From positions 29,327 to 93,326 of the forward strand of contig JAFDYD010000019.1 in NCBI GenBank assembly GCA_018267615.1: DNA of 64,000 nt, read 5' to 3'. This stretch comes from Bacteroidota bacterium (lineage in GTDB: Bacteria; Bacteroidota; Bacteroidia; Chitinophagales; Chitinophagaceae). This document shows, in pieces, positions 2,347-59,683 of this stretch (its first letter is position 1; every line of letters starts with the position of its first letter). Both the position numbers and the translations under genes were made by a program. Under the pieces are notes generated by a model. That model was not told where the DNA came from, made no database searches, and saw only the letters and a program-made list of their open reading frames with translations.

Positions 2347-2433
2347 GCTGAACGCGAAACGCCAAATGCATAACGCTGTTCTAATTTTTTCTTTGTGGCT
2401 TCTGCGTTCCGCGTTTTGCGTTTTGCGTTCAGC
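2347..2433. repeat. Intergenic imperfect inverted repeat of 7-bp units (aaacgca-type) in rplN-rplX spacer
   Basis: gctgaacgcgaaacgccaaatgcataacgc (2347-2376) vs gcgttccgcgttttgcgttttgcgttcagc (2404-2433); 30-bp arms, 5 mismatches. Confidence 0.85.
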
Positions 2434-2454
2434 GTTTAGCCCTATTCGTTAGTC

Positions 2455-2823
2455 CTATAGTACTTCAGGCGCCAACGAAATAATCTTCATATATCCCTTG
2501 TCACGCAATTCTCTCGCAACTGGCCCGAAAATACGGGTACCACGTGGCTCATCAGAAGGATTTAATAATACCACCGCATTGTCATCGAAGCGGATATAAG
2601 AACCGTCTTTACGGCGCAATTTATTTTTTGTACGTACGATCACCGCTTTGGTAACCGTTCCTTTTTTAATACCGCCGGAGGGCAATGCATCTTTTACTGT
2701 CACAACAATTTTATCGCCGATCTTCGCATAATCCTGTCCGCTATTTCCCAACACACGAATACATAACACTTCTTTGGCGCCACTGTTGTCAGCTACATTT
2801 AATCTGCTTTCCTGCTGAATCAT
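2455..2823 (-). CDS. rplN: 50S ribosomal protein L14
   Basis: [37 protein letters not shown]. Confidence 0.98.
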
Positions 2824-2906
2824 TTTATTTAGGTTTTAGTCTCGCCTTAGGCGAGAATTTATTCTTTCAGTTTACCGTATCAGTTCCGTCAACGGCTTAC
2901 TGATTT

Positions 2907-3167
2907 TTATTTTGCCTTTTCTACAATTTCCACCAGGCGCCAGCGCTTGGTTTTACTAAGGGGACGGCTTTCCATGATCTTTACCACGTCGCCAATACTG
3001 CACTCGTTTTTTTCGTCGTGCGCATGAAACTTGGTAGTTTTTTTCAAGAACTTACCATAGATAGGGTGCTTAACTTTTCTTTCAACAGCAACGGTAATCG
3101 TCTTACTCATTTTATTGCTGCTTACAATCCCTATCCTGATTTTCCGTAAATTTCTATCTTCAGCCAT
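2907..3167 (-). CDS. rpsQ: 30S ribosomal protein S17
   Basis: [31 protein letters not shown]. Confidence 0.98.
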
Positions 3168-3173
3168 GTTTTT

Positions 3174-3238
3174 AATTTGAGAATGTGAAAAAGTGAAAAT
3201 GTGATTTGGTTATCCTTACATCCACACGATTGCACATT
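3174..3238. repeat. Degenerate aatgtgaa-unit intergenic repeat (rpmC-rpsQ spacer)
   Basis: gaatgtgaaaaagtgaaaatgtga with a short complementary gcacatt; same unit as 5589-5704 and 40998-41093. Confidence 0.6.
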
Positions 3239-3241
3239 TAT

Positions 3242-3451
3242 TTATGCGTTTATTTTTCTTTTCGTCAACTCTGTTTTTAAACGAGCCACATCCTGTCTTA
3301 AAGAACGAATGCTCATCGGATTTTCCAGCGGAGAAATAGCATGCGCAAATTCAAGCTTCTTCAAGCGCAATTCATCTTCTGAAATACGCGCCTTCAGATC
3401 TACATCTGTCATTTCCTTCAGACTTTTTACGAAATCAATTCTCTTTGACAT
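3242..3451 (-). CDS. rpmC: 50S ribosomal protein L29
   Basis: LENPMSIRSLRQDVARLKT; start moved to MSKRIDF (3451) because the longer ORF start gives an atypical N-terminus. Confidence 0.95.
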   Translation of the reverse strand: MSKRIDFVKSLKEMTDVDLKARISEDELRLKKLEFAHAISPLENPMSIRSLRQDVARLKTELTKRKINA

Positions 3452-3502
3452 TTTATTATTTTTTTCTTTCTGCGATAATCGCAGAGAATGAATCATATTG
3501 TT

Positions 3503-3985
3503 TTATTCCGCCGCTTCCTGTGCTTCTGCCGAGTCCGCTGCTACCTGTGCTTTTACTGCCACCGCCGCTGCTGAACTATCGTGCCTCACAATGAATTTTG
3601 TTTTGATCGGAAGTTTTTGTGCTGCAAGCAACAATGCTTCCTTAGCAACTTGTTCTGAAACGCCATCTGCTTCGAACAGGATACGACCTGGTTCAACTAC
3701 AGCCGCCCAGTACTCCGGGTTACCTTTACCTTTACCCATTCTCACTTCAAGTGGTTTCTTGGTAATCGGCTTGTCGGGGAACACGCGTATCCACACATTT
3801 CCTTCACGTTTCATGTGACGAGTCAACGCCTGACGTGCAGCTTCGAGCTGGCGATTCGTTAACCAGATTGCTTCCAAAGCCTTTAATCCAAAAGAACCAA
3901 AAGCTACCGTGCTTCCTCTCTTCGCTACTTCACGAATACGACCTTTTTGCGCCTTTCTATGTTTCGATCTCTTAGGTTGTAACAT
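3503..3985 (-). CDS. rplP: 50S ribosomal protein L16 with Ala/acidic C-terminal extension
   Basis: [30 protein letters not shown]. Confidence 0.98.
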
Positions 3986-4044
3986 CGTATTATTTTTGAA
4001 AAATGATTATCGCATCCGTCCTTTCAAAGGCGGAAAATTTTGTT

Positions 4045-4872
4045 TTAGTTTCTTCTATCACCACCTCTTCTGTCACCGCCGCCTCTCTGGCCGCCACCGC
4101 CTCTTCTATCGCCGCCTCCGCCGCCACCTCTTCTGTCTCCTCCTCTTCTATCATCATTGCGATCACGTTCGCCACCATGTCTTTCCCTCCTGTCACTCAC
4201 ATCACTCTTACCACCTACGAAATTTGGATTCAAATCTCTTTTTGTCAAAACTTCGCCTTTACATATCCAAACTTTCACACCAATTTTTCCATATACCGTC
4301 AATGCATATACGCCGGCATAATCGATATCCATACGCAACGTATGCAATGGTGTACGACCCTGTTTAATTTCTTCCGTACGCGCAATTTCAGCACCACCCA
4401 AACGTCCACTCACCTTCACTTTAATTCCTTCTGCACCCATGCGCAACGCAGATGCGATTGCCATTTTGATTGCACGTTTGTAGTTGATACGGTTCTCGAT
4501 CTGGCGAGCAATCGTATCGCCCACGATATTTGCGTCCAGTTCCGGGCGACGGATCTCAAGAATATTGATCTGCACGTCATCTTTCCCTGTCAATTTTTTC
4601 AATTCTTCTTTGATACGATCAACTTCACCACCACCTTTACCGATAATGATACCAGGCTTAGATGTATGGATCGTAACAATCAATTTATTTAATGTACGCT
4701 CGATAACAATCTTTGCAATGCCACCCTTATTGATACGCGCATTCAGGTATGTCCTGATCTTATTATCCTCGATCAACTTGGTAGCATAATCTTTTTTGCT
4801 TCCGTACCAGTTAGATTCCCACCCGCGAATAATCCCTAATCTCGCTCCAATAGGATTTGTTTTTTGACCCAT
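4045..4872 (-). CDS. rpsC: 30S ribosomal protein S3 with Arg/Gly/Asp-rich tail
   Basis: [16 protein letters not shown] domain [18 protein letters not shown]. Confidence 0.98.
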
Positions 4873-4897
4873 ATTATGGTTTAAAAAGTTTTATCAA

Positions 4898-5242
4898 TTA
4901 ATTTTTAGCGTCAACGATTAGTGTCACATGATTGCTGCGCTTACGTACTCTGTAACCGCGGCCCTGTGGAGCAGGACGCATACGTTTCAATACACGCGCA
5001 CCATCAACGAAAATTGTTTTCACTACCAGGCTCGCATCTGCTGCACTTTTCCCTTCATTCTTTTGCTCCCAGTTTTTTACGGCAGACCATAACAGTTTAT
5101 GCAATGGTGTAGATGAATGTTGCGGGTGATGCTCCAACAATGCCAATGCTTTTTCTACATGCAACCCGCGAATTTCATCAGCCAGTAAACGCATTTTACG
5201 TGGCGAAGTCGGATAATTTCTCAGTTTAGCTACTGCTTCCAT
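4898..5242 (-). CDS. rplV: 50S ribosomal protein L22
   Basis: [31 protein letters not shown]. Confidence 0.98.
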
Positions 5243-5297
5243 TTTTAATTTCCAATTTATAGTTTACAGTTCTGTTCCTATTATCAAACAAAAACCG

Positions 5298-5579
5298 TTA
5301 AGCTCCTTCAGCAATTTTTTTACTTGAGTGTCCTTTGAAGTTGCGTGTCGGCGCAAATTCACCTAATTTATGTCCAACCATAAATTCTGTTACATATACA
5401 GGGATAAACTTGTTACCGTTATGTACGGCGAAAGTATGTCCCACGAAATCCGGTGTAATGGTTGAACGACGGCTCCAGGTTTTAATAACTCCTTTCTTGC
5501 CTTTGCCTTCGTTAATAGTCAATACTTTTTTCTCGACTTTCGCGTCTACGTAAGGACCTTTTTTAATTGAACGACCCAT
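5298..5579 (-). CDS. rpsS: 30S ribosomal protein S19
   Basis: [31 protein letters not shown]. Confidence 0.98.
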
Positions 5580-5588
5580 GTTAATTTG

Positions 5589-5704
5589 AAAATGTGATAA
5601 TTTGAAAATGTGAAAATGGTTCTCAAATTATCTGTTCAAAATTTTTTTTGTTCGCAAATATGAAAAGCATTTTCACATTTTCACATTTGCATTTTTCTCA
5701 CATT
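5589..5704. repeat. Intergenic inverted repeat of 8-bp units (aaatgtga) in rplB-rpsS spacer
   Basis: aaaatgtgaaaatg (5605-5618) is the exact reverse complement of cattttcacatttt (5668-5681); further degenerate units flank both arms. Confidence 0.85.
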
Positions 5705-5705
5705 G

Positions 5706-6545
5706 TTACTGCGATATTTTCTTTCCGCTTTTTCTCTGGATAATCATCTTATCACTTCCTTTCCCTTTCGTTCTTGTCTTCAACCCTCTTGAATATTGTC
5801 CATTTCTAGAACGAGGCTGACCACCTGAAGCTTTTCCTTCGCCACCACCCATCGGATGATCAACTGGATTCATCGCTACGCCACGGTTTCTTGGACGAAT
5901 ACCTCTCCAACGATTGCGGCCTGCTTTACCCATGCTCTGCAAACTGTGATCACTATTTGAAACAACACCCACAGTTGCATAACAATTGATCAACACTTTT
6001 CTCAATTCGCCTGAAGGCATTTTCAATACTGCATATTTTTCTTCTTTGTTCGTCAACTGCGCAGAAGCACCCGCGCTGCGAACCAATTTGCCACCCTGTC
6101 CAGGTTGCATTTCGATATTATGAATATTTGTACCGAGTGGGATATGTTTCATCTGCAAAGCATTTCCTACTTCAGGAGCAACATCATCACCAGCCAACAC
6201 TGTTGCACCAACTTGCAAACCTTGCGGTGCTATGATATATCTTTTGTCGCCATCATTGTAATTCAACAACGCAATGAAAGCGGTTCGATTAGGATCATAT
6301 TCAATCGACGCAACTGTAGCCGGAATATTTTTCTTGCTTCTTTTGAAATCGATGACACGATACATTTTTTTATGCCCGCCACCGATATAGCGCATCGCTC
6401 TTCTACCCTGGGCATTTCTACCGCCGGTTGATTGCACTTTTTCAAGAAGTGATTTTTCCGGTTGATCCGTTGTTACTTCGGCATAAGCATTACCAATTCT
6501 CCATCTTGTTCCTGCTGTTACCGGTTTATATTTTTTTAGTGCCAT
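5706..6545 (-). CDS. rplB: 50S ribosomal protein L2
   Basis: [29 protein letters not shown]. Confidence 0.98.
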
Positions 6546-6620
6546 ATACCATTTAAAAAGGTTAACTAATATGCTTTCAACTTTTGCGGTAGTTGACTAC
6601 CATTCGTTTTATTAGTGGAC

Positions 6621-6920
6621 TTAAATGTTCGCGTATAAGTCGATCGATTCTCCTTCTGCTACTGTTACCAATGCTTTTTTATAAGCTGGTTTGCGTCCCT
6701 GTACCATTCCGGCTTTTGTGGAACGAACTTTTGTTTTTGCAGGAACTACTGTCGTATTTACATCGATAACACTAACACCATAAAAACCTTCTACAGCTTT
6801 TTTAATTTCCAGCTTGTTTGCTTTTCTGCTTACTTTAAAAGCATAGCGTCTCAATTTTTCCTGCTGCGCATTTGCTTTTTCAGTCAATATCGGTTTAATC
6901 AAAACATCAGAAAATCTCAT
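6621..6920 (-). CDS. rplW: 50S ribosomal protein L23
   Basis: IKPILTEKA, NKLEIKKAVE, YKKALVT. Confidence 0.97.
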   Translation of the reverse strand: MRFSDVLIKPILTEKANAQQEKLRRYAFKVSRKANKLEIKKAVEGFYGVSVIDVNTTVVPAKTKVRSTKAGMVQGRKPAYKKALVTVAEGESIDLYANI

Positions 6921-6967
6921 CGTATCAAATTTTTATGCCCGCTATAAACGAGACTGTGAAATATTAT

Positions 6968-7606
6968 TTATGCTTCTGCTGTTACTTCTTCTTCAGAAAA
7001 TAATTTTGCTGCTGTTTCGGAAAGAACCAACACATCTGCATTCACGATATCATAAGTGTTGATATCTGCCAGTAATGAACCTTCAACATGAGGTATATTA
7101 CGAAGACTCAGATGCAGGTTATCATCATACTCCGGAACTACAAACAGTGATTTTTTATTTTCGATCTTCAATCCTTTCAGAATATCTGCGAATTCTTTTG
7201 TTTTAGGCGCATCCAGTTTAATATCTTCAATAACCACGATCGCATTATTCTTCGCTTTGTGTGCAAGAGCAGACATTTTTGCAAGGTCTTTCACTTTGCG
7301 GTTCAATTTGAAATCATAATCGCGCGGCTTTGGTCCGAAGATCGTACCACCACCTTTGTAAAGCGGGTTGCGGATATTTCCTTTACGTGAACCACCGGTT
7401 CCTTTTTGTTTGTGCAATTTTTTGGAAGAACCTTTTACTTCCAAACGGGTTTTCACTTTATGTGTTCCTTGGCGTTGCGCAGCGAGATATTGCTTCACAG
7501 CAAGATAAATTACATGATCATTCGGCTCGATACCAAAAATATCATCAGGCAATTCAACAGTCTTGCTGGTTTTTTTTCCTTTTATGCTGACTACATTTAT
7601 TTGCAT
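6968..7606 (-). CDS. rplD: 50S ribosomal protein L4
   Basis: QRQGTHKVK, KQKGTGGSRKG, KGGGTIFGPKPR; start moved to MQINVV (7606). Confidence 0.96.
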   Translation of the reverse strand: MQINVVSIKGKKTSKTVELPDDIFGIEPNDHVIYLAVKQYLAAQRQGTHKVKTRLEVKGSSKKLHKQKGTGGSRKGNIRNPLYKGGGTIFGPKPRDYDFKLNRKVKDLAKMSALAHKAKNNAIVVIEDIKLDAPKTKEFADILKGLKIENKKSLFVVPEYDDNLHLSLRNIPHVEGSLLADINTYDIVNADVLVLSETAAKLFSEEEVTAEA

Positions 7607-7622
7607 TGTACTCTTATTATTA

Positions 7623-8240
7623 TTACTTCTGAACAAAAACAATTGATCCGTTATGACCCGGAACAGATCCGCTTACCAATATGTAATTCTTATCAGGGAA
7701 AATTTTTACGACTTTCAAACTTTTTAATTTCACACGATCCCCGCCCATGCGGCCGGCCATGCGTACACCCTTCATTACTCTTGATGCGTCAGAAGAGTTA
7801 CCGAGTGAGCCCGGAGCTCTGCTACGATCATGCTGACCGTGACTTGCCCCACCCACACCACTGAATCCATGACGTTTTACAACACCCTGGAATCCCTTTC
7901 CCTTAGATGTGCCAACAACATCAACATTTTCACCTTCTGCGAAGATGTCGACTGTAATTGTTTCACCTAAATTTTTTTCTATGGAGAAGTTGCGGAATTC
8001 TTTTACAAATTTTTTGGGAGAAGTATTTGACTTGGCGAAGTGATTTTTTTCTGCAGCGATTGAGTGTTTTTCATTCTTGTCGCCAAACGCGAGTTGGAGA
8101 GAGCTATATCCATCAGTTTCCTGTGTCTTAACCTGGGTTACTACACAGGGGCCTGCCTCGATGATGGTGCAGGCAACCTGTTTACCATCGGGGGAGAATA
8201 CGCTGGTCATTCCAATTTTCTTTCCAATAATTCCTTTCAT
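7623..8240 (-). CDS. rplC: 50S ribosomal protein L3
   Basis: [12 protein letters not shown] start (8240), [23 protein letters not shown]. Confidence 0.97.
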
Positions 8241-8423
8241 TTTTTTTACTTTTTTGCCTGGAGTATAAGGACATTCGATAATCTGTTTTGCTTGGTGCAA
8301 AACTGACCATGATTTCAATCCCCCCGTTTGCAACCGACCTTTTCTGTTTATGCCAGCTTAAAAATTTCAGCAGACAATAGAAGTACCGGTAGTAAACAAA
8401 CCCCGAACGGCTTGTTCATATGT

Positions 8424-8662
8424 AATCGCGGATTTTAGGATTAAGAGAGATTTCGCGGATAGCGGTTTCTCTTATTCTCAAACCCACATTTATTTTCGAT
8501 TAAAGATTCGAAGGACTTCACCAACCGTGTTATCGCTTCGTTTCTTTATCCCAGCGCTCTTTTTTCTTCCGCCTCGGGCGAAAAATTGAGAGATGAGTAA
8601 CACCAAATCACTTTATTCTAAGAACTAAATCTGTGAAATCCACATAATCATATAATCCGCGA
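8424..8662. repeat. Long imperfect inverted repeat bracketing ~165 bp in rpsJ-rplC spacer
   Basis: atcgcggattttaggattaagagagatttcgcggat (8424-8460) aligns with the reverse complement of atctgtgaaatccacataatcatataatccgcgat (8629-8662). Confidence 0.75.
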
Positions 8663-8968
8663 TCATGCTTTGATTTCAACATCCACACCGGATGGCAAAT
8701 CGAGCTTCGACAATGCATCTACAGTTCTAGAGGTAGACGTGTAGATATCCAACAAACGCTTATGCGTATGCAATTGGAACTGCTCGCGCGCTTTTTTGTT
8801 TACGTGTGGTGAACGCAAAACAGTAAAAATTTTCTTCTTAGTGGGTAACGGAATAGGACCTGTTACCACTGCACCTGTACTGCGTACTGTTTTTACGATC
8901 TTTTCGGCAGATTTATCTACCAGGTTGTGATCGTATGATTGTAATTTGATCCTGATTCGTTGAGACAT
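8663..8968 (-). CDS. rpsJ: 30S ribosomal protein S10
   Basis: [31 protein letters not shown]. Confidence 0.98.
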
Positions 8969-8998
8969 AAGTCAAACCCCATTTTTCGAACGGGGATG

Positions 8999-9030
8999 CA
9001 AAGGTATGGACAAACTTTTAAACGATCAAA
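8999..9030 (-). promoter_or_regulatory. Bacteroidetes primary-sigma promoter for rpsJ/S10 operon
   Basis: Minus strand TTTG (9030-9027), 20-nt spacer, TACCTTTG (9006-8999); matches the TTTG/TAnnTTTG consensus; a CCCCGTT-CGAAA-AATGGGG hairpin follows (8977-8995). Confidence 0.85.
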
Positions 9031-9057
9031 GATTTGCAGATTTTTTTTGAACCGAAA

Positions 9058-11268: not shown

Positions 11269-11373
11269 AAGTTTTTTTATAAATAAAAATGGCGATTATA
11301 ATTGAATTATCATTCCCGTTCAACAAAAAAAATGATAAGTCCGCGGAATCACTATCCTCAAATTTGATTCAAA

Positions 11374-11409
11374 AAAATAAAACCCGGCAACAATGCCGGG
11401 TTTTATTTT
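11374..11409. terminator. Intrinsic terminator downstream of fusA (bidirectional-type hairpin)
   Basis: aaaataaaacccggca-acaa-tgccgggttttatttt, 16-bp perfect stem with A/T tails. Confidence 0.85.
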
Positions 11410-11427
11410 ATCAAAAAACATTTTTTG

Positions 11428-13575: not shown

Positions 13576-13719
13576 TGTTTTATATTAAAAGTTTCTATTT
13601 CCAATTTGTATAGCCCGTAACATTTTGAGCTTGCCATTCGCGTGAATGACAACCATTCTGTTTATCAATAACTTAATCTTATCTGTGGCATCGGGCTCTC
13701 CTCCTTTTATTTTGGTGTG

Positions 13720-13727
13720 CAAAGGTA
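13720..13727 (-). promoter_or_regulatory. -7 promoter element (TACCTTTG) upstream of fusA
   Basis: Exact TAnnTTTG match ~145 nt before the fusA ATG; -33 box not clear. Confidence 0.7.
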
Positions 13728-13787
13728 TGTCAAAAGTCGGATATTATGAAAACTGGGGAAAGGCGGCAGTGGTACAGGTTGATTTAA

Positions 13788-13911
13788 AAGGTAGAAGGTA
13801 TGGGGTGTAGGGTATGGAAGAGCTTGTTTCAATTCACGATTTTTATTTTTCATCCCAAGCAACACTATTGATTGGCTGCTTGCCGTACCTTACATCCTAT
13901 ACCTTACACCT
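13788..13911. repeat. Intergenic inverted repeat of 7-bp units (taaggta/tacctta family)
   Basis: aaggtagaaggtatggggtgtagggtatg (13788-13816) vs taccttacatcctataccttacacct (13886-13911); same family at 53691 and 58521. Confidence 0.75.
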
Positions 13912-13917
13912 CCAAAA

Positions 13918-14661
13918 TCAACCGATCAATTTGAGGAACTCATCTTTTTTCCTTCTGGCTAAATCCACAAAATTTCCATTCTGCATTTCAATTTGGCCGC
14001 CATCACCCCGGATGTAGCGTTTTATGTATTGGAGATTGATAATATGAGAATGATGTGCGCGGAAAAAAACTTCTGCCGGCAACAGATCTTCGAATTCTTT
14101 AAGCGTTCTGCTTGCAACCAGTTTTGGGTGATTGGTGAAATAGATGGCGGTGTAATTACTTTGAGCTTCGAGATGAATAATGTCGCCAATATTAAAAAAG
14201 AGCAGACCATCCAATGTCGGAATCGCCAGTTTGTTTAGGGCTAATCCGGGATGGAGATTTTCCTCTAACGCTTTCAGTTTTTGCGGTGTATTGTTTTGAG
14301 ATTGTTGTTTTATTTTTTCGACGCATGAGCGCAACTCTTCTATATCGACCGGTTTTAATAAATAATCGAACGCCGCAAACTTGATCGCCTTGATTGCATA
14401 TTGATCGTACGCTGTGGTAAAAATGATATGAAAATTTTTGTTTTCAATTCTCCGAAGCATTTCAAATCCATCCATGCGAGGCATTTCGATATCGAGGAAA
14501 ATAATATTTGGTTGAAATTTTTTTATTTGTTCGATGCCTTCTTCACCGCTGGTCGCCTCAGCAACGATGGACAGATCTTTGCAATAGTCAATTATTTTTT
14601 GTTTTAAGGCAAGCCTTCCTTTCAATTCGTCATCTATAATAATCGCCTTTAGCATGATCAT
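13918..14661 (-). CDS. LytR/AlgR-family response regulator (REC + LytTR)
   Basis: IIIDDE, FLDIEMPRMDGF, FTTAY, DYLLKP; C-terminal FFRAHHSHIIN; ATGA overlap with the kinase. Confidence 0.95.
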   Translation of the reverse strand: MIMLKAIIIDDELKGRLALKQKIIDYCKDLSIVAEATSGEEGIEQIKKFQPNIIFLDIEMPRMDGFEMLRRIENKNFHIIFTTAYDQYAIKAIKFAAFDYLLKPVDIEELRSCVEKIKQQSQNNTPQKLKALEENLHPGLALNKLAIPTLDGLLFFNIGDIIHLEAQSNYTAIYFTNHPKLVASRTLKEFEDLLPAEVFFRAHHSHIINLQYIKRYIRGDGGQIEMQNGNFVDLARRKKDEFLKLIG

Positions 14662-40997: not shown

Positions 40998-41092
40998 AAT
41001 GTGAGGATGTCAAAATGTGAAAATGTGTGAAGCTGACATGCAGATCACCTGAATAACCCACAGGCTTGCTCATACCCAAATTCGCACATTTT

Positions 41093-41093
<1 letters not shown>
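40998..41093. repeat. aatgtgaa-unit intergenic repeat (pyrG-yidC spacer)
   Basis: aatgtgaggatgtcaaaatgtgaaaatgtg plus distal cacattttc. Confidence 0.6.
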
Positions 41094-44438: not shown

Positions 44439-44524
44439 TCCATTAATGCTTTGGCTAAAATTAACAAAAAAGAAGTTAGGTGAAATGAGAGCGTGTTAAG
44501 ACAACACATGTATTCATTCAAACA

Positions 44525-45505: not shown

Positions 45506-45582
45506 TCAAACATTAGTTGAAATAGTTTATAAAACTTGTATCACTTTTCAACGGCAATTATTTTTTGGGATAAACACAATCG

Positions 45583-47817: not shown

Positions 47818-47834
47818 GGTAGCTCGGAAAACTG

Positions 47835-47842
47835 CAAAAGTA
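47835..47842 (-). promoter_or_regulatory. -7 element TACTTTTG upstream of purL
   Basis: TAnnTTTG match 18 nt upstream of the ATG. Confidence 0.6.
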
Positions 47843-47895
47843 CGAACGCAAGCCCAATCTTATGCATAATTTTATCACCAGCTAATTCATACATA

Positions 47896-49943: not shown

Positions 49944-50004
49944 CGTATATTAGATTCAAATTTATAGATTTGATGTATTAAATTCCTGTTTTGAAAATCA
50001 TTTT

Positions 50005-51255: not shown

Positions 51256-51412
51256 TATAATATTTTTTTTACATAAAATCAATTATTAAATAATAAATTC
51301 AAAAATTTATTCAAAAAAACGTCCTTAATCATAAAAAAATTTGATTTTAGCTGATTTCTTTGGGCATTATGTTCAATTATCTTTTATTTGCATAATAAAA
51401 AAATTTAAAGCA

Positions 51413-53608: not shown

Positions 53609-53634
53609 CCCCCTAACCAACATACAGTTTACAG

Positions 53635-53663
53635 AAAAAGCCCGTCGCGAGACGGGCTTTTTT
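53635..53663. terminator. Bidirectional intrinsic terminator between glnA and cmk
   Basis: aaaaagcccgtc-gcga-gacgggcttttt. Confidence 0.9.
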
Positions 53664-53690
53664 GTTTATTGTCGCCTGTTGGTAAGCAAT

Positions 53691-53747
53691 AAGGTGTAAG
53701 GTATAAGGTATGTCATACCTTATACCTTATACCTTACACCTTACACC
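53691..53747. repeat. Heptamer-unit hairpin (taaggta/tacctta family)
   Basis: aaggtgtaaggtataaggtatg then cataccttataccttataccttacaccttacacc. Confidence 0.85.
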
Positions 53748-53752
53748 CAATT

Positions 53753-54436
53753 CTACATTCTCTCCTTCACCCATTTCAAAGCAAGATTCAATTGTTCCTC
53801 AAGGCTGAGACTGGTATTATCGAGAACGACTGCATCACTTGCTTTTCTGAGTGGACTTACTTCACGGTGAGAATCGATATAGTCACGCATTTCGAGATTA
53901 TTCTTTACTTCATCGATCGTTATGTTCGGATTCTTTTCAAACAATTCCTTGAATCTTCGTTCAACCCGAATGGCATTGTCGGCGGTCATAAAAATTTTCA
54001 ATTCCGCTTTGGGAAATACAACTGTTCCGATATCTCTTCCATCCATAACAATTCCTTTTTGCTTTCCCATTTGCTGTTGCTGCCTGACAGCAAATTCCCT
54101 GACGGATTTGATGGCAGCAACATCACTCACTTTTTCAGCGATCACAAGATCGCGGATAAGATATTCCACATTCTCGCTGTTCATATATACTTCACTCTCC
54201 TTACTCTTTGGATTGTACACAAATTCTATGACGATACTTTTTAGCGCCTTCTCAACACTCGCCGGTTTCGTCCAGTCAATATGATTCCGCAAAAAATACA
54301 ATGTGATGGCACGATACATCGCACCGCTGTCAATATATTTATAGTTCAACTCTTTTGCCAATTGTTTAGCCAACGTACTTTTTCCGCAGGCGGACCAACC
54401 ATCTATTGTGATAATTATTTTCTTTTCCTTTGCCAT
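53753..54436 (-). CDS. cmk: Cytidylate kinase
   Basis: ITIDGWSACGKST, DSGAMYRA, VMDGRDIGTVVFP, RDYIDSHR..SPL. Confidence 0.96.
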   Translation of the reverse strand: MAKEKKIIITIDGWSACGKSTLAKQLAKELNYKYIDSGAMYRAITLYFLRNHIDWTKPASVEKALKSIVIEFVYNPKSKESEVYMNSENVEYLIRDLVIAEKVSDVAAIKSVREFAVRQQQQMGKQKGIVMDGRDIGTVVFPKAELKIFMTADNAIRVERRFKELFEKNPNITIDEVKNNLEMRDYIDSHREVSPLRKASDAVVLDNTSLSLEEQLNLALKWVKERM

Positions 54437-54470
54437 AATTTTCGCTCACAAAAATGCAAAATAAATTGAT

Positions 54471-54551
54471 AAGGTACAAGGTTCAAGGCCCAAGGCTCAA
54501 GAAAAAAGGCACAGGAGTTATTAACTCTTGTGCCTTTATTTCTTGTACCTT
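54471..54551. repeat. Heptamer (caaggt-type) array enclosing the clpC terminator hairpin
   Basis: aaggtacaaggttcaaggcccaaggctcaag ... cttgtacctt; inner stem aaaggcacaggagtt/aactcttgtgccttt (54505-54537). Confidence 0.7.
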
Positions 54552-54565
54552 CTAACTTTACTATA

Positions 54566-57091
54566 TTAAACTTCTGATTTCTCTTTTGTTCTTTCTTTCA
54601 ATGAGAATTTCAATTTTGAATTTTCTTTATCGAGATCAGCGATCATAATATCGCCAGCCTTAATACTCATATTCAAAATTTCTTCTGCCAGCGGATCTTC
54701 CAGGTATTTCTGGATGGCGCGATGCAAAGGACGAGCTCCGAATTGCTGGTCATATCCTTTTTCGGCAAGAAAATTCTTGGCTTCTTCAGTCAATTCTAAA
54801 GTGAATCCCAATTGAACAAGACGTTTCATTACACCCTTCATCAGGATATCGATGATTTCAAAGATATGTTCTTTGTTCAGCGAGTTGAATATAACGATAT
54901 CGTCTACACGATTGAGAAACTCCGGACTGAATGTACGCTTTAATGCTTTTTCAATAACCGCTTTATTATTCTCATCAGCATTAGCTGTACGGGAAGATGT
55001 TGCAAATCCTACTCCATCACCAAAATCCTTCAACTGGCGTGCACCAATGTTTGATGTCATGATGATCAGTGTATTCTTAAAATCAACTTTTCTACCCAAA
55101 CCATCAGTCAACTGTCCATCATCCAATACCTGCAAAAGAATATTGTAAATATCCGGATGCGCTTTTTCAATTTCATCCAGCAAAATCACTGAATATGGTT
55201 TTCTGCGCACTTTTTCAGTGAGCTGACCACCTTCTTCATAACCAACATATCCGGGAGGAGCACCAATCAAACGGCTCACGGTAAATTTCTCCATGTATTC
55301 ACTCATATCAATACGAACGAGTGAATCTTCAGAGTCGAACATGTATCTTGCAAGTGCTCTTGCCAATTCTGTTTTACCAACACCCGTTGGTCCCAGGAAT
55401 ATAAAAGTACCGATCGGCTTTTTAGGATCTTTCAATCCAACACGATTACGTTGAATGGCTTTAACCACTTTTTGTATCGCATCGGTCTGACCAACTACCA
55501 TTCCCGCCATATCAGTAGCCATGTTGCGTAACTTCTCACTCTCTGCCTGCACCATCCTTTTAACAGGTATGCCCGTCATCATACTCACCACTTCCGCAAT
55601 ATTTTCTTCGTCTATTGGATACCGTTTGTGCTTGCTTTCTTCTTCCCATTCAGCCTTCGCTTTTTCCAAATCTTCCTGCAAACGTTTTTCTGCATCGCGC
55701 AGAGAAGCTGCTTCCTCGAACTTCTGGCTCTTTACAACTTTATTCTTTTCATTCTTTACATCTTCTATTTTCTTCTCCAGATCAACGATATTCTGGGGAA
55801 CATTGATATTTTTAAGATGCACCCTCGCTCCTACTTCATCCAAAACGTCGATCGCTTTGTCCGGAAGCAAACGGTCAGTCATATAACGATCACTCAATTT
55901 TACGCAAGCCTCAATGGCATCGTTTGAATAAGTGACATTATGATAATCTTCGTATTTAGACTTGATATTATTCAATATCTGGATTGTTTCATCCACACTT
56001 GGCGGATCGATCATCACTTTTTGAAAACGTCTGTCCAACGCACCATCTTTTTCGATATACATTCTATATTCATCCAGAGTAGATGCCCCAATGCACTGGA
56101 GTTCACCTCTTGCAAGCGCCGGCTTGAATATATTCGAAGCATCAAGAGAACCACTGGCACCGCCAGCTCCAACGATGGTATGAATTTCGTCGATGAACAA
56201 TATCACATCGCGGTTCTTTTCAAGTTCATTCATGATCGCTTTCATCCTTTCTTCAAACTGTCCGCGATATTTTGTTCCTGCAACCAATGCTGCCAGGTCA
56301 AGAGATATCACTCTTTTATCAAACAACACACGCGAAACTTTTCGCTGAACAATGCGAAGCGCGAGACCTTCCACGATTGCGGTTTTACCCACTCCCGGTT
56401 CACCGATAAGTATCGGGTTGTTCTTCTTACGCCTCGAAAGAATTTGGGAAACTCTTTCAATTTCTTCTTCCCTGCCAACGATTGGATCGAGTGCATTCAT
56501 TTCGGCCAAGCGGGTAATATCCCTGCCGAAATTGTCGAGTACAGGAGTTTTGCTTTTAGCTGTACCGGTGCTGCGAACTTTTTGCTGAGAATATTTTTTC
56601 TCTTCATCAAAATCATCTTCGTTTTCCTCAGCATACTCGCTACGGGTATCGTTGCTTTTTACAACTCCTAGTTCATTTCTAAATAAGTCGTAATCCACGT
56701 CAAATTGATTTAAGATTTGTGTAGCAATGTTTTCTTTGTTTTTGAGAATAGAAAGCATCAGATGCTCTGTTTCTACAGTGGGACTCTTTAACGCCTTTGC
56801 CTCAAGTACCGTTACACGAATTACTTTCTCTGCCTGTTTAGTGAGGGGGAGACTGTTGATATTGGCAATATTCTTACCTGTTTTGTCTTTTACCGCCAGT
56901 TCAACTTCCTTTCTTAATTCATATAAATCTACATTAAAGCTTTTCAGGATGCGGATTGCTGTGTTATCGCCTTCACGAATCAAACCCAACAATAAGTGCT
57001 CCGTGCCGATAAAATCGTTACCCAACCGTAAGGCTTCTTCTCTACTGAACGAAATTATTTCCTTTACCTGGGCTGAAAAATTATTATCCAT
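54566..57091 (-). CDS. clpC: ATP-dependent Clp protease ATP-binding subunit (ClpC type)
   Basis: Clp-N repeats (GTEHLLLGL), [34 protein letters not shown]; start set at MDNNF. Confidence 0.95.
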
Positions 57092-57184
57092 TTTAAGTAA
57101 TTGAGCTTTATACAATAATAACGAATATTTTTGATTTCTGTTCCCGTCGAGTTATTAACGAACGTTAACAAATATTAAGTGTGT

Positions 57185-57559
57185 ATGAAGTTCAAAATTG
57201 ATACCAGAGAAAAATTCCATGCCATAACCATTCAGGAAATCAGTCTTGCTGCTAATATGACAGAAGAGCTGGACAAATGTTTACTATCACTACTCCAAAA
57301 TGACGTTAAGAACCTTGTGCTCGTATTAAAAGACATCGAAACAATCGATATTGCTGCGGCGGAACATTTGGTTGCAACTCAACAAACATTTTATGAAAAC
57401 AACGCGTCTTTCGTGATCTGTGAATTAAACAAATCGATCGAAAAAAAGTTGGATGATGAAGGCTTGTTGGAATTGATGAACATCACTCCAACCGAAAGCG
57501 AAGCCTACGATATTGTACAGATGGAGGAAATTGAAAGAGAATTGCTCGATGAAGAGTAA
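57185..57559 (+). CDS. STAS-domain protein
   Basis: KNLVLVLKDIETID...LV......ASFVICEL pattern; start at ATG 57185. Confidence 0.78.
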   Translation: MKFKIDTREKFHAITIQEISLAANMTEELDKCLLSLLQNDVKNLVLVLKDIETIDIAAAEHLVATQQTFYENNASFVICELNKSIEKKLDDEGLLELMNITPTESEAYDIVQMEEIERELLDEE

Positions 57560-57604
57560 GGCACTCGACATGCAAGTTTCGATTTTATTTACCAATCAAA
57601 ATTC

Positions 57605-58486
57605 ATGATCACACCGGAAGTTGAATCGGCGATAAGGTGCAACCTTTGTTCGCAACTGAACATTACCATCAATTCCTTTCGCGCATTTTCCGTTGGAGGC
57701 GGATCAATCAATGATACATACCGACTCCATATTAATGATAAACTGCAAGTGTTCTGTAAGATCAACTCTCTAAAAAAATATCCGTTGCTGTTTGAAAAAG
57801 AAAAGCGCGGCATGGAAATGATCCGCAACAAAAATGTGATCCGCGTTCCAAAAATCCTTTGCTGTTTCAATACAGATCAATACCAGGTGCTTATCATGGA
57901 ATGGATCGAGCAGGGTTTGAAAACGGAAAAATTCTGGAAGGTTTTTGGCGAACAACTAGCCCAATTACATTATGGCACCAATTCTTTTTTTGGGTTAGAA
58001 GAAGACAATTATATGGGCGCTTTGACTCAATCCAACAAAGCCCATGCTTCCTGGGTTGATTTTTTATTGGATGAAAGATTTATTCCGCAGGTCCGGCTTG
58101 CTCTTGAAAACAAGCTGCTCGAACCCGTGCAGGCGCGTAAGTTTGAGGATTTGTTCAAAGTATTACAAGATATATTCCCGGTTGAACAACCTTCATTTGT
58201 TCATGGCGATCTATGGAGCGGCAATTTCCTCGCAGATAAAAACGAAAATCCTGTTTTGATTGATCCCGCTGTTTACTGGGGAAATCGAAACATGGATCTT
58301 GGCATGACTACCTTATTCGGCGGTTTTGATAAGAGTTTTTATGAAGCATACCAACACCATATACTATTTCAAAAAAATTTCTACCAGCAATGGCAAATCT
58401 GCAATCTTTATCCATTGCTGATACATTTGAATCTTTTCGGGAAAACCTATCTCGCGGATATCGTTAACACAATAAAACAATATTAG
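57605..58486 (+). CDS. Fructosamine kinase family protein
   Basis: VGGGSIN, PSFVHGDLWSGN, IDPAVYWG.R.MDL. Confidence 0.9.
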   Translation: MITPEVESAIRCNLCSQLNITINSFRAFSVGGGSINDTYRLHINDKLQVFCKINSLKKYPLLFEKEKRGMEMIRNKNVIRVPKILCCFNTDQYQVLIMEWIEQGLKTEKFWKVFGEQLAQLHYGTNSFFGLEEDNYMGALTQSNKAHASWVDFLLDERFIPQVRLALENKLLEPVQARKFEDLFKVLQDIFPVEQPSFVHGDLWSGNFLADKNENPVLIDPAVYWGNRNMDLGMTTLFGGFDKSFYEAYQHHILFQKNFYQQWQICNLYPLLIHLNLFGKTYLADIVNTIKQY

Positions 58487-58520
58487 GTTGTAGCAATTGT
58501 AATTTTGTATTATTTTCATT

Positions 58521-58627
58521 TAAGGTATAGGATAAGGTAATTGGTGGAAGGTTTGAGAAAGATGATTGCTGCATGTTGCAATAAGAATTTCGGTTACGTC
58601 GTATAGTTATACCTTACACCTTGCACC
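58521..58627. repeat. Heptamer-unit inverted repeat (taaggta/tacctta family)
   Basis: taaggtataggataaggta (58521-58539) and tataccttacaccttgcacc (58608-58627). Confidence 0.65.
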
Positions 58628-58656
58628 AACAAATCGTATAACTTTAAAATCGAGCT

Positions 58657-59559
58657 GTGCTCTCTGTAACTATCTTAGGAAATAATTCTGCCTTACCGGC
58701 ATTTGATCGTCACCCCACTGCGCAGGTGATCACGATGGATGAACATTTGTTCCTCGTAGACTGCGGTGAAGGTACACAGTCGCAGATGGCCAAATACAAA
58801 ATCAGGCGAAGCAAGATCAATCATATTTTTATTTCACATCTTCACGGCGATCACTATTTCGGATTGATCGGTCTGATAACAAGCATGGGATTATTGGGGA
58901 GACAGCAGGATATACATCTTTACGCACCTTCTCCTTTGAAAGAAATTTTTGATATGCAACTAAAAGTAGCGGATACAAAACTTCCTTTTGAATTGAAGTT
59001 TCATCCACTACAGGAAGAAGGTATCATCGTCAAAGACAGCCGCTATGAAGTAAGCGCCTTCCGTGTTTTTCATCGCATAGAATGCTGGGGATTTAAATTC
59101 AGACAAATAAAACCTTTGCGCAAAGTAAATCCTGCAAAAGCTGTACAGCACCAGGTGCCTTCTTCATTTTTTGACCGGTTAAAATGGGGCGAAGACTATT
59201 TGACGAAAGATGGCCATCTTATAAAAAATGAATTGGTTACTGAAGCCGCGCCAAAAGCAAAATCTTATGCGTACTCTGCAGATACGGTATATAATGAATG
59301 CATCGCTGAAAAAATAAAAGGTGTTGATCTTTTATATCACGAAGCCACTTATCTAAAAGATCTTGAGGAAAGAGCTATCAAACGTTTTCATAGCACCACT
59401 GTCCAAGCAGCAACCATCGCGCAAAAAGCTGGCGTGAGCAGATTAATCATTGGACATTTCAGTTCCAAATACGAAAAGCTCGAGGAATTTGAAAAAGAAG
59501 CCAAAGAAATTTTTCCGAATACAGAGCTGGCACTGGAAGGAGTTACCTACCGGGTTTGA
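58657..59559 (+). CDS. rnz: Ribonuclease Z
   Basis: LVDCGEGTQ, ISHLHGDHYFG, AYSADT, LYHEAT, HST, IGHFSSKY; GTG start. Confidence 0.95.
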   Translation: MLSVTILGNNSALPAFDRHPTAQVITMDEHLFLVDCGEGTQSQMAKYKIRRSKINHIFISHLHGDHYFGLIGLITSMGLLGRQQDIHLYAPSPLKEIFDMQLKVADTKLPFELKFHPLQEEGIIVKDSRYEVSAFRVFHRIECWGFKFRQIKPLRKVNPAKAVQHQVPSSFFDRLKWGEDYLTKDGHLIKNELVTEAAPKAKSYAYSADTVYNECIAEKIKGVDLLYHEATYLKDLEERAIKRFHSTTVQAATIAQKAGVSRLIIGHFSSKYEKLEEFEKEAKEIFPNTELALEGVTYRV

Positions 59560-59572
59560 AAGGAATCGATAA

Positions 59573-59683
59573 AGAAATATTCAACAATCAATATTCAACA
59601 ATCAATGTTCAAGTGGAATTAAATAGCATGTTGCATTGCCTACTTGAACATTGATTGTTGAATATTGATTGTTGAATATTTCT
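59573..59683. repeat. Perfect 42-bp inverted repeat with 14-bp internal period, 27-nt loop
   Basis: agaaatattcaacaatcaatattcaacaatcaatgttcaagt (59573-59614) is the exact reverse complement of 59642-59683. Confidence 0.92.

What the first reader, a model, noticed from the sequence alone, without database searches (positions are those of the whole stretch)
2347..59683. Recurrent intergenic inverted repeats built from 7-8 bp tandem units (at least four sequence families, nine sites)
Seen: aaacgca family at 2347-2433; aaatgtga family at 3174, 5589 and 40998; taaggta family at 13788, 53691, 58521 and the related 54471; aatattc/aacaatc family at 59573. The sequences differ but the architecture is shared: a short-period tandem array, a spacer, then the complementary array, always between genes and even inside ribosomal operons. 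These are not CRISPR arrays or ordinary terminators. Inference: a REP/MITE-like or STRR-like element class that forms long mRNA hairpins (stability, processing, stoichiometry), or empty sites left by small mobile cassettes. I recall four-helix-bundle and GxxExxY genes being flanked by similar arrays in Bacteroidetes, but cannot verify that here.
Basis: partly seen in the sequence, partly recalled or inferred. Interest (0 to 1): 0.62.

Follow-up and report, generated by a model that had tools for sequence, protein, structure and literature searches.

The report
Genome-wide hairpin repeats with heptamer-built arms
The nine sites belong to about 700 dispersed DNA palindromes in this soil Chitinophagaceae genome, each arm a run of 7-8-base repeats; they behave like small selfish repeat elements and share their arms with rare cassettes that carry the small genes known from ribosomal-RNA "intervening sequences".

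Summary
Sites 3174 and 40998 are decayed or one-armed arrays, and 58521 is weak.

**Scale**
- The genome (5.37 Mb, uncultured Chitinophagaceae) holds about 2,070 arrays of period 7-8, roughly 20 times a Markov expectation.
- 81% lie in the 14% of sequence that is non-coding.
- At least 691 are paired as hairpins (inverted versus direct partners 1104:39).

**Evidence for discrete dispersed elements**
- There are 118 unit families, and 17 of the 20 large ones have one fixed polarity.
- 43% of hairpins have a full-length copy elsewhere, and the similarity stops at the arm ends.
- Orthologous sites in relatives are empty or hold a different family.
- The same families bloom patchily across the order.

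**Link to cargo genes**
- About ten of twelve four-helix-bundle/GxxExxY genes sit between such arms.
- Eight of those use arms from dispersed families.

**Against an RNA role**
- Sense and antisense folding and G·U mismatches are symmetric.
- There is no excess of T-runs after the hairpins.

One low-copy hairpin in the ribosomal-protein operon (site 5578) has a conserved loop and may be a functional RNA.

The mobility mechanism is inferred, not shown. No RNA data could be obtained.

The parts
2340..2440 (.). Site A: hairpin between rplN and rplX. Arms 2340-2376 and 2404-2440 are built of NNAACGC units, with a 27-nt loop.
   Evidence: I4, 78% complementary; -36.6 kcal/mol, z -5.75. The orthologous junction in relatives holds covarying AACGC, AAAGC, AAGGC or GAGGC hairpins, or is empty at 14-16 nt.
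3174..3240 (.). Site B: decayed AAATGTGA-type array (3174-3204) with a residual partner (about 3222-3240), between rpmC and rpsQ.
   Evidence: z -2.16, 11 of 200 shuffles as good. L216 and L220 carry a full-length copy of the site-C element at this same junction.
5578..5704 (.). Site C: AAATGTGA hairpin between rplB and rpsS. Arms about 5583-5629 and 5657-5704. Loop core is TTTTGAACAGATAATTTGA on the transcribed (-) strand.
   Evidence: I2; z -3.98. The loop core is unique in this genome. The same element sits at other S10/spc junctions in relatives. A proximal stem is kept, mainly through G·U changes.
13777..13923 (.). Site E: AAGGTA/GGGTAT hairpin. Arms 13777-13817 and 13883-13923, with a 65-nt loop. 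It lies at the stop of a LytTR response-regulator gene, upstream of fusA.
   Evidence: I3; -50.6 kcal/mol, z -5.85.
40998..41093 (.). Site D: one-armed AATGTGAA array (40998-41027) between yidC and pyrG. A single complementary unit lies at 41083-41093.
   Evidence: z -0.56, not better than shuffles.
53682..53752 (.). Site F: TAAGGTA hairpin with a near-zero loop, between the cmk stop and a conserved bidirectional terminator (convergent cmk / glutamine-synthetase-like gene).
   Evidence: I5, I9, 22 nt at 100%; z -7.56. The site is empty in the nearest relative L131 and holds an unrelated GAAATTAG hairpin in L132.
54462..54560 (.). Site H: AAGGTAC/AAGGCAC hairpin after the clpB stop. Its apex (54502-54540) is a terminator-like stem followed by a T-run.
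   Evidence: I20, I21; z -5.76. Relatives have a plain terminator here. L134 has the same unit family ending in a T-run. L131 has a terminator plus a CTTTGTG hairpin.
58521..58629 (.). Site G: weak TAAGGTA/TACCTTA hairpin upstream of rnz. Arms about 58521-58553 and 58607-58629.
   Evidence: z -1.55, 14 of 200 shuffles as good. Absent from the relatives sampled.
59564..59692 (.). Site I: AATATTC/AACAATC hairpin (14-nt super-period) with 51-nt arms, 96% complementary, between the convergent rnz and the next gene.
   Evidence: I1; -73.2 kcal/mol, z -15.6. The family has 54 hairpins and 135 arrays in this genome. The same arms enclose the four-helix-bundle gene at C18:62738-63202.

Best explanation
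**What the sites are.** They belong to a genome-wide population of small palindromic DNA repeat elements: at least 691 hairpins and about 2,070 arrays, 1.2% of the genome and about 9% of its non-coding DNA. Each element has two inverted arms of about 3-5 tandem units of 7 or 8 nt around a short loop (median 23 nt).

**Shown here.**
- They fall into discrete sequence families that are copied to unrelated loci with sharp ends.
- They are gained and lost at orthologous sites.
- They accumulate just after stop codons.
- They share their arms with rare cassettes whose loop holds a four-helix-bundle (TIGR02436, the '23S rRNA IVS protein') or a GxxExxY (PD-(D/E)XK-fold) gene.

**Inferred.**
- They are selfish, MITE/REP-like elements that spread as DNA.
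- Their palindromy is kept at the DNA level. This would happen because a hairpin or cruciform is needed for copying, and/or through slippage plus arm-to-arm template switching. It is not kept by selection for pairing in the sense mRNA.
- In transcripts they must still fold into very stable stems (median about -50 kcal/mol). That is probably a tolerated side effect, which insertion after stop codons makes least harmful.

**Not identified.** The enzyme or process that moves them. The cassette proteins are candidates only.
For: **Excess and location**
- Period-7/8 arrays are about 20 times the shuffle expectation.
- 81% lie in the 14% of sequence that is non-coding.
- Inverted partners number 1104 against 39 direct.

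**Family behaviour**
- There are 118 families. In 17 of the 20 families with at least 8 members, one polarity accounts for at least 90% of copies.
- 295 of 691 hairpins have a full-length copy of at least 85% identity elsewhere. The similarity ends a median of 1 nt beyond the arms.
- Arms of one element are more complementary to each other (91.5%) than to arms of other copies in the family (84.5%, p=4e-34).

**Position relative to genes**
- The median hairpin starts 18 nt after a stop codon.
- Density per kb of spacer is 1.8 in convergent, 0.9 in tandem and 0.5 in divergent spacers.

**Turnover at orthologous sites**
- rplN|rplX is filled with covarying units or empty at 14-16 nt.
- Site F is empty in L131 and holds another family in L132.
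- rplV|rpsC is filled in L212 and empty in five others.

**Patchy distribution across the order**
- CTTTGCGN x3 gives 365 hits here, tens in a few genomes of other families in the order, and none in the one other genome of this genus sampled. The reversed-pattern control gives 0.
- AATATTC blooms only here and in G048.

**Cassettes**
- About 10 of 12 cargo genes are flanked by such arms.
- In eight cassettes the arms, and only the arms, recur at 11 to about 150 other loci.
- trpB|trpA carries the four-helix-bundle cassette here and is empty in 12 of 12 informative relatives.
- Cassettes with at least 70% identical proteins share arms across taxonomic families.

**No RNA-strand signal**
- Sense versus antisense folding is 186:185, and G·U-compatible mismatches are 385:398.
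Against: - No transposition event, transposase or target-site duplication was seen.
- The most abundant family (CTTTGCGN, about 150 hairpins) has no cargo-bearing copy in this assembly. One GxxExxY gene merely lies next to a hairpin of that family.
- 57 of the 118 families are singletons, which could have arisen in place.
- At rplN|rplX the loops are homologous while the arms changed in concert. That is in-place evolution, not new insertion.
- The site-C element has a conserved loop and G·U-type substitutions, so at least one family looks like a selected RNA.
- Gene calls were crude (longest-ORF heuristic). The census required at least 75% ungapped arm complementarity, which biases the self-versus-cross comparison slightly.
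- The closest relatives available are only about 80% identical in DNA.
- No transcript data were available.
Confidence: 0.55

Rival explanations
1. They are host-useful RNA elements. Long intercistronic or 3'-end stems would be cut by RNase III or would block exonucleases, setting mRNA stability and the stoichiometry of operon products. The cassettes would be a special case in which a gene rides in the loop, as in 23S rRNA intervening sequences.
For: - The stems are very stable (median about -50 kcal/mol; site I -73 kcal/mol).
- RNase III is encoded in this genome.
- IVS stems of 28 bp are cut by RNase III in Coxiella (PMC4990558).
- Hairpins sit right after stop codons, and 188 of 386 tandem-context hairpins lie in spacers of 200 nt or less.
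- The ribosomal-operon element (site C) keeps its loop sequence and a proximal stem across species, with about 12 one-sided changes to G·U and only one to A·C.
Against: - There is no sense/antisense asymmetry in folding energy (186:185) or in G·U-compatible mismatches (385:398) over 374 co-directional contexts.
- 100 hairpins lie between divergent genes.
- Orthologous sites are often empty or hold an unrelated family.
- Congeneric genomes lack hairpins altogether in the same operon.
- No Rfam family matches.
Confidence: 0.2
2. They arise and grow in place without transposition. Replication slippage with a 7-8-nt preference would make tandem arrays next to existing small hairpins. Quasi-palindrome template switching would copy one arm onto the other, so each locus evolves its own palindrome.
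For: - 57 of the 118 families are singletons.
- At rplN|rplX, five species have homologous loops but arms changed in concert: AACGC/GCGTT, AAAGC/GCTTT, AAGGC/GCCTT, GAGGC/GCCTC.
- Self-complementarity exceeds cross-copy complementarity.
- Stems often extend into unique flanking sequence: at least 8 of 10 flank bases are complementary in 26% of hairpins, against 2% in controls.
- An excess of heptamer repeats attributed to polymerase slippage is known (Mrazek 2007, as summarised in PMC4679880).
Against: - 43% of hairpins have near-full-length copies at unrelated loci, loops included, with sharp ends.
- Family polarity is fixed.
- Identical unit families bloom in distant taxa but not in a congener.
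- Whole-element presence or absence occurs at orthologous junctions.
Confidence: 0.15
3. They are REP-type elements mobilised by a RAYT / IS200-like Y1 transposase.
For: - Three PF01797 (Y1 transposase) genes are present.
- One of them (C29:123160-123591) has an AGATTTTG hairpin just upstream.
Against: - The two C50 copies are flanked by their own GC-rich, non-tandem palindromes. These are unlike the heptamer hairpins.
- The C29 gene has a hairpin on one side only.
- There are 118 unit families and no shared head motif.
Confidence: 0.05

Closest known systems
ORF-bearing intervening sequences (IVS) of 23S rRNA (Coxiella burnetii, Leptospira; S23p = PF05635/TIGR02436)
   Same: - A small four-helix-bundle gene sits in the loop of a long stem formed by terminal inverted repeats.
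- The distribution is sporadic and horizontally transferred (PMC4990558).
- Six cassettes of this build are in this genome, and all or nearly all homologues sampled across the order have it.
   Different: - These lie between protein-coding genes, not in 23S helix 25 or 45.
- The arms are tandem 7-8-mers.
- About 98% of the hairpins carry no gene at all.
- RNase III excision was not tested.
STRR / long simple-sequence heptamer repeats (cyanobacterial STRR; Mrazek 2007 LSSR; TAACTGA repeats of Beggiatoaceae, PMC4679880)
   Same: - Intergenic tandem heptamers occur in large lineage-specific excess.
- The distribution across taxa is patchy, and the function is unknown.
   Different: - Those are described as direct arrays, often upstream of start codons.
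- Here the rule is an inverted pair forming a palindrome (1104 inverted against 39 direct).
- Here there are many unit families, and the arms are shared with gene cassettes.
REP/BIME elements and their RAYT transposases
   Same: - Extragenic palindromes number in the hundreds per genome.
- They are enriched at gene 3' ends and between convergent genes.
- Nested arrangements occur.
   Different: - There is no conserved GTAG/CGTC-type head.
- The arms are internally tandem-repetitive and longer (median 28 nt).
- The RAYT-like genes of this genome have their own, different palindromes.
MITEs (e.g. Correia, Nezha, Porphyromonas MITEs)
   Same: - They are short, non-coding and bounded by terminal inverted repeats.
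- They form dispersed families with sharp ends.
- One family has a conserved terminal inverted repeat of at least 34 nt.
   Different: - No target-site duplication was seen.
- No transposase-bearing parent was found.
- Empty copies share only the arms with the gene-bearing copies and none of the interior.

Membership tests
23S rRNA intervening sequence (IVS) | Inserted in helix 25 or 45 of the 23S rRNA gene | tested here: not met
   All nine sites and the twelve cassettes lie between protein-coding ORFs, for example rplN|rplX, clpB|cmk and trpB|trpA.
23S rRNA intervening sequence (IVS) | Terminal inverted repeats forming a long stem that encloses the element | tested here: met
   The median arm is 28 nt.
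23S rRNA intervening sequence (IVS) | S23p / four-helix-bundle ORF in the loop | tested here: not met
   None of the window's sites has an ORF in its loop. Only 6 four-helix-bundle and about 6 GxxExxY cassettes exist among at least 691 hairpins.
23S rRNA intervening sequence (IVS) | Excision from the transcript by RNase III | not testable with these tools
The rnc gene is present.
REP/BIME (RAYT-associated) | Family-wide conserved head motif and a short 20-40-nt imperfect palindrome | tested here: not met
   There are 118 unit families with no shared motif. The arms are tandem 7-8-mers and elements span a median of 86 nt.
REP/BIME (RAYT-associated) | Cognate Y1 transposase gene flanked by the repeats | tested here: not met
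   Three PF01797 genes were found. Two are flanked by unrelated GC-rich palindromes and one has a hairpin on one side only.
MITE | Terminal inverted repeats, and dispersed copies with defined ends | tested here: met
   295 of 691 hairpins have copies of at least 85% identity over their full length. Similarity extends a median of 1 nt beyond the ends.
MITE | Target-site duplication and a transposase-encoding parent element | tested here: inconclusive
   No direct duplication is evident in the flanks, which tend to be inverted-complementary instead. The gene-bearing copies encode no known transposase and share only their arms with the empty copies.
STRR / LSSR heptamer repeats | Intergenic tandem repeats of a 7-nt unit in large excess | tested here: met
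   Here 8-nt units are as common as 7-nt units (373 against 318 hairpins).
Intrinsic (Rho-independent) terminator | G+C-rich stem followed by a T-run on the sense strand | tested here: not met
   A T-run follows 20 of 386 hairpins on the sense strand and 21 on the antisense, against a 6.4% background. Arm G+C is 41%. Site H is an exception, with a T-run inside it.
CRISPR array | Direct repeats of 25-40 nt separated by unique spacers | tested here: not met
   Units are 7-8 nt and contiguous, and the partner array is inverted.

The most novel reading that the evidence does not exclude
Heptamer/octamer-armed hairpins would be a transposase-free class of mobile DNA.
- The small cassette proteins would act in trans on arms of matching unit sequence. 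These are the GxxExxY PD-(D/E)XK-fold protein as a nuclease, and the Avd-like four-helix-bundle oligomer as a reader of repeated units. The gene-less hairpins would then be their non-autonomous passengers.
- 23S rRNA intervening sequences and the long-unexplained bacterial heptamer repeats (STRR, LSSR) would be two faces of one system.
- A second strand of this reading is that some copies have been domesticated as RNA elements. The candidate is the conserved-loop hairpin that changes junction within the ribosomal-protein operon.
Probability: 0.15. Interest if true: 0.9.

Novelty: new variant of a known kind. Interest (0 to 1): 0.68.

Why it matters
- **An old puzzle.** Bacterial genomes have long been known to hold unexplained excesses of tandem heptamers, and 23S rRNA 'intervening sequences' have stayed an isolated curiosity.
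- **What this genome adds.** Here the heptamer/octamer arrays are overwhelmingly the two arms of discrete, dispersed palindromes. The same arms enclose the IVS-type genes. That gives both puzzles a common, testable frame.
- **Practical consequences.** About 9% of the non-coding DNA, including spacers inside ribosomal-protein and respiratory operons, consists of elements that fold at about -50 kcal/mol. This matters for operon annotation, terminator prediction and assembly. N-runs lie within a few of the hairpins listed; their origin was not checked.
- **A guard against over-reading.** The negative strand-asymmetry result warns against treating every stable intergenic hairpin as a functional RNA.
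- **Literature.** I found no paper describing this architecture. The search covers open-access text only.

Tried and rejected
- **Rfam at gathering thresholds.** It returned only a tRNA at 63620-63693 and nothing at the hairpins.
- **RAYT/IS200 link.** Rejected.
- **Terminator reading.** Rejected because T-runs are at background frequency.
- **'Purine- or G-rich arm always first'.** Rejected. The overall split is only 429:248, the largest family is pyrimidine-first, and polarity is a family property.
- **Empty hairpins as internal-deletion derivatives of cassettes.** No support. Only the arms recur, never the cassette interior.
- **Elements insert into the apex of pre-existing hairpins.**
  - This holds for the GATTAAAGGATT element. 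52% of its copies have at least 9 of 12 complementary flank bases against 11% in controls, usually TTGATAAG-type arms.
  - It is not general. Site F lies between a stop codon and an intact terminator.
  - A composite element is not excluded.
- **Short-core element finder.** My finder for short cores such as CTTTGCG was too permissive (n=1501), and I discard those flank statistics.
- **Protein-unit co-evolution.**
  - The 6-mer Mantel test was null (r=0.005, p=0.47).
  - An alignment-based test was significant (r=0.32, p=0.001). However, arms are shared only when the proteins are at least 70% identical. That is co-inheritance, not proof of specificity.
- **Loop core of site C as a dispersed repeat.** It occurs once in this genome and about once per genome in the genus.

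Full report
**1. The observation.**
- I read all nine sites and scanned the window for tandem and inverted repeats.
- Seven sites are real inverted repeats whose arms are tandem 7-8-nt units:
  - A 2340-2440 (NNAACGC units)
  - C 5578-5704 (AAATGTGA)
  - E 13777-13923 (AAGGTA/GGGTAT)
  - F 53682-53752 (TAAGGTA)
  - G 58521-58629 (TAAGGTA, weak)
  - H 54462-54560 (AAGGTAC/AAGGCAC)
  - I 59564-59692 (AATATTC/AACAATC, 51-nt arms, 96% complementary)
- Against 200 dinucleotide shuffles, the folds of A, C, E, F, H and I have z from -4.0 to -15.6, and no shuffle folds as well. G (z -1.6), B (z -2.2) and D (z -0.6) do not stand out.
- B is a decayed copy and D is a one-armed array.
- All sites lie between ORFs. 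The neighbouring genes are ribosomal-protein genes, fusA, a LytTR regulator, yidC, pyrG, a glutamine-synthetase-like gene, cmk, clpB and rnz.
- Rfam finds nothing at these sites.

**2. It is a genome-wide phenomenon.**
- The window is C10:29327-93326 of a 5.37-Mb, 39.5% G+C assembly. It is an uncultured Chitinophagaceae; the nearest named ClpB, at 94% identity, is from a Chitinophagaceae MAG.
- TRF over the genome gives 1041 and 1139 rows for periods 7 and 8, against 144 for period 6 and 212 for period 10. Merged, these make 2,067 arrays with 465 canonical units.
- With crude ORF calls (86% coding), 81% of the period-7/8 arrays lie in non-coding DNA. For periods 6 and 9-13 the figure is 17-47%.
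- Intergenic DNA holds 840+913 such rows, against 42+39 in a third-order Markov shuffle.
- Of 1,665 intergenic arrays, 1,104 have an inverted partner within 400 nt at 75% identity or better. Only 39 have a direct partner.
- This gives 691 hairpins with loops of 150 nt or less:
  - median arm 28 nt, or 3.8 units
  - median loop 23 nt and median span 86 nt
  - 318 of period 7 and 373 of period 8
  - median fold about -50 kcal/mol
  - 1.2% of the genome and 8.6% of its non-coding DNA
- The census is conservative. It caught only two of the window's nine sites.

**3. They behave as discrete, dispersed elements.**
- The hairpins fall into 118 unit families. Ten families hold 52% of the copies, and 57 families are singletons.
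- Each large family has one polarity. Examples are CTTTGCGN-first 91:2, AAGGTAC-first 35:0, CCTATGTG-first 31:2 and AACGCTG-first 29:0. In all, 17 of 20 families with at least 8 members are at least 90% uniform.
- Polarity is not uniformly purine-first (429:248).
- 295 hairpins have at least one partner elsewhere that covers at least 90% of both elements at 85% identity or better. The alignments run a median of 1 nt (75th percentile 3-4 nt) into the flanks.
- One family (GATTAAAGGATT; 59-64 copies, depending on the search pattern) has a conserved terminal inverted repeat of at least 34 nt and variable loops. It usually sits in the centre of another hairpin family's arms.
- Within an element the two arms match each other better (91.5%) than they match the arms of other family members (84.5%; p=4e-34). 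Copy-specific variants are therefore mirrored across the two arms.

**4. Where they sit.**
- Hairpins start a median of 18 nt after the upstream stop codon and end a median of 78 nt before the next long-ORF ATG.
- Per kb of spacer they are commonest between convergent genes (1.8), then tandem (0.9), then divergent (0.5).
- Half of the tandem-context hairpins lie in spacers of 200 nt or less, which probably places them inside operons.
- They are not terminators in the usual sense. A T-run follows 20 of 386 on the sense strand, 21 on the antisense, and 6.4% of random intergenic positions.
- Site H is the exception. Its apex is a stem plus T-run at the position where relatives have a plain clpB terminator.

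**5. The test for RNA-level selection is negative.**
- If pairing were selected in the mRNA, mismatches should favour G·U on the sense strand, and the sense strand should fold better.
- Over 374 hairpins between co-directional genes, the sense strand folds better in 186 and the antisense in 185 (Wilcoxon p=0.89).
- G·U-compatible mismatches number 385 on the sense strand and 398 on the antisense.
- Complementarity is therefore maintained symmetrically, which points to the DNA level.
RNase III is encoded, so cleavage of these stems in vivo remains possible.

**6. Relatives show turnover, covariation and patchy blooms.**
- Every relative compared at the DNA level is at most about 82% identical in these genes.
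- At rplN|rplX, the window and five other species carry a hairpin whose units differ but whose arms covary: AACGC/GCGTT, AAAGC/GCTTT, AAGGC/GCCTT and GAGGC/GCCTC. Three of these have homologous loops. Four congeners have a 14-16-nt spacer, and other families of the order have short spacers.
- Site F is absent from the nearest relative (L131, Cmk 91% identical). There the cmk stop is followed after 8 nt by the same conserved terminator. L132 has an unrelated GAAATTAG hairpin at that position.
- Site H is shared with L134. In L131 it is replaced by a terminator plus a CTTTGTG hairpin.
- rplV|rpsC carries a full hairpin in L212/L214 and is a 27-30-nt empty spacer in the window, L211, L215, L216 and L220.
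- The pattern CTTTGCGN x3 (up to 2 mismatches) gives 365 hits here. It gives 22-52 in six genomes from five other families of the order and none in the one other genome of this genus sampled. The reversed control gives none anywhere.
- The AATATTC pattern blooms only here (347 hits) and in G048 (117 hits).

**7. The link to four-helix-bundle and GxxExxY genes.**
- The genome has six TIGR02436 and about six TIGR04256 genes.
- About ten of the twelve lie between inverted 7-8-nt arrays.
- In eight cassettes the arms belong to dispersed families, for example:
  - AATATTC for the four-helix-bundle (4HB) gene at C18
  - AACGCTG at C23
  - AAGGTAC at C59
  - ACATAGGC for the GxxExxY gene at C53
  - GATTAAAGGATT at C38
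- Blast of whole cassettes against the genome finds 11 to about 150 other loci for the arms and none for the interior.
- The C18 cassette lies between trpB and trpA. In 12 of 12 informative congeners that junction is 0-99 nt with no cassette.
- Across 151 genomes of the order, 79 have a homologue of the C18 protein. In the 30 loci fetched, nearly all are flanked by inverted arrays.
- Arms are shared when the proteins are at least 70% identical, even between taxonomic families (5 of 6 pairs). Below that they rarely are. The alignment-based Mantel test gives r=0.32, p=0.001, and the 6-mer version is null. The cassette is thus inherited and transferred as a unit, but unit-specific recognition by the protein is not shown.
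- G048 is the one other genome with an AATATTC bloom, and it also has an AATATTC-armed homologue.
- The largest family here, CTTTGCGN, has no cargo-bearing copy.

**8. One family looks different.**
- Site C has a loop core, TTTTGAACAGATAATTTGA, that occurs once in this genome and about once per genome in the genus.
- Arms plus loop recur at different junctions of the same S10/spc operon in relatives that share an identical RplN:
  - rplB|rpsS
  - rplV|rpsC
  - rpsC|rplP
  - rpmC|rpsQ
  - rpsH|rplF
- An alignment of ten copies gives a conserved proximal stem. It is kept through about 12 one-sided changes to G·U, one to A·C and one double change.
- This is weak evidence from few, related sequences. 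It goes against the bulk result of section 5 and suggests a selected RNA.
- Site B is the decayed remnant of such a copy.

**9. Interpretation.**
- **Shown:** a very large, non-random, intergenic population of palindromes with tandem-unit arms. It has family structure with fixed polarity, sharp-ended copies, presence/absence and family replacement at orthologous sites, and patchy blooms. The arms are shared with IVS-type gene cassettes that are themselves lineage-specific insertions. There is no strand-specific RNA signature.
- **Inferred:** these are selfish, DNA-level mobile or copy-prone palindromes, most harmlessly lodged after stop codons. Slippage and arm-to-arm template switching (quasi-palindrome correction, an established mutational mechanism) homogenise units and keep the arms complementary.
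- **Unknown:** the moving agent. RAYT-like genes exist but have other palindromes.

**10. Known relatives and literature.**
- The closest described things are:
  - ORF-bearing 23S rRNA IVS (PMC4990558)
  - cyanobacterial and other heptamer repeats (PMC4679880; bioRxiv 10.1101/2022.06.06.494920)
  - REP/BIME elements
  - MITEs
- None combines tandem-unit inverted arms, many families and these cargo genes. Five full-text searches found no description of this architecture.
- Earlier notes of this scan report the cassette architecture in many other genomes. I treated them as leads.
  - My data agree on the cassette link and on the stop-codon anchoring.
  - They disagree with a universal G-rich-first polarity.
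  - They weaken the claim that unit and protein co-evolve.

Noticed in passing
window 5578-5704 and 3174-3240; L211-L220 spacers: An AAATGTGA hairpin with a conserved loop core (TTTTGAACAGATAATTTGA) occupies different junctions of the S10/spc ribosomal-protein operon in different species. It is low-copy, and it keeps a proximal stem mostly through G·U changes. It may be a functional intercistronic RNA rather than selfish DNA.
   Followed up: partly
L001, L003, L009, L010 (S10 operon spacers of congeners): Runs of TTTTCAAA/ATTTTCAA units lie directly upstream of the start codons of several ribosomal-protein genes, often without a complementary arm. This resembles the TAACTGA-before-start-codon pattern described for Beggiatoaceae.
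   Followed up: no
window 4045-4872 (rpsC), repeats at 4064-4152: Ribosomal protein S3 has a C-terminal extension with 15-27-nt in-frame repeats that appear to encode a low-complexity Gly/Arg/Asp-rich tail. Relatives have similar tails of varying length.
   Followed up: no
G000 C50:53552-54112 and C50:59829-60389; C29:123160-123591: There are three Y1 (IS200/RAYT-like) transposase genes. The two C50 copies are flanked by their own GC-rich REP-like palindromes, which are unrelated to the heptamer hairpins.
   Followed up: partly
G000, e.g. C16:48447-48646, C20:41291-41492, C5:6901, C22:85061: A MITE-like element with a conserved terminal inverted repeat of at least 34 nt (TTTTGAACCATGATTAAAGGATTGAAGGATT...) is present in about 60 copies. 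It is nearly always nested in the centre of TTGATAAG-type octamer hairpins. It is either a hairpin-apex insertion or a composite element.
   Followed up: partly
G000 C10:18400-18474, C33:137708, C49:17867: Runs of N fall inside several hairpins. These may be assembly gaps caused by the palindromes, or masked stretches.
   Followed up: no
G000 C20:80689-81034: A GxxExxY gene is split by an in-frame TGA, probably a pseudogene. It is still flanked by GCGGATT-type inverted arrays.
   Followed up: no
G068 and G052 (control columns): The reversed control pattern (AACTTATAACT...) is itself abundant in two genomes of another family in the order (228 and 173 hits). Other unit families therefore bloom there.
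   Followed up: no
G000 C16:126598-127914: AAATGTGA-type hairpins also separate consecutive genes of what is probably the NADH dehydrogenase (nuo) operon, identified by eye from the ORF translations. The same unit family thus recurs in two operons that are likely to be highly expressed.
   Followed up: no
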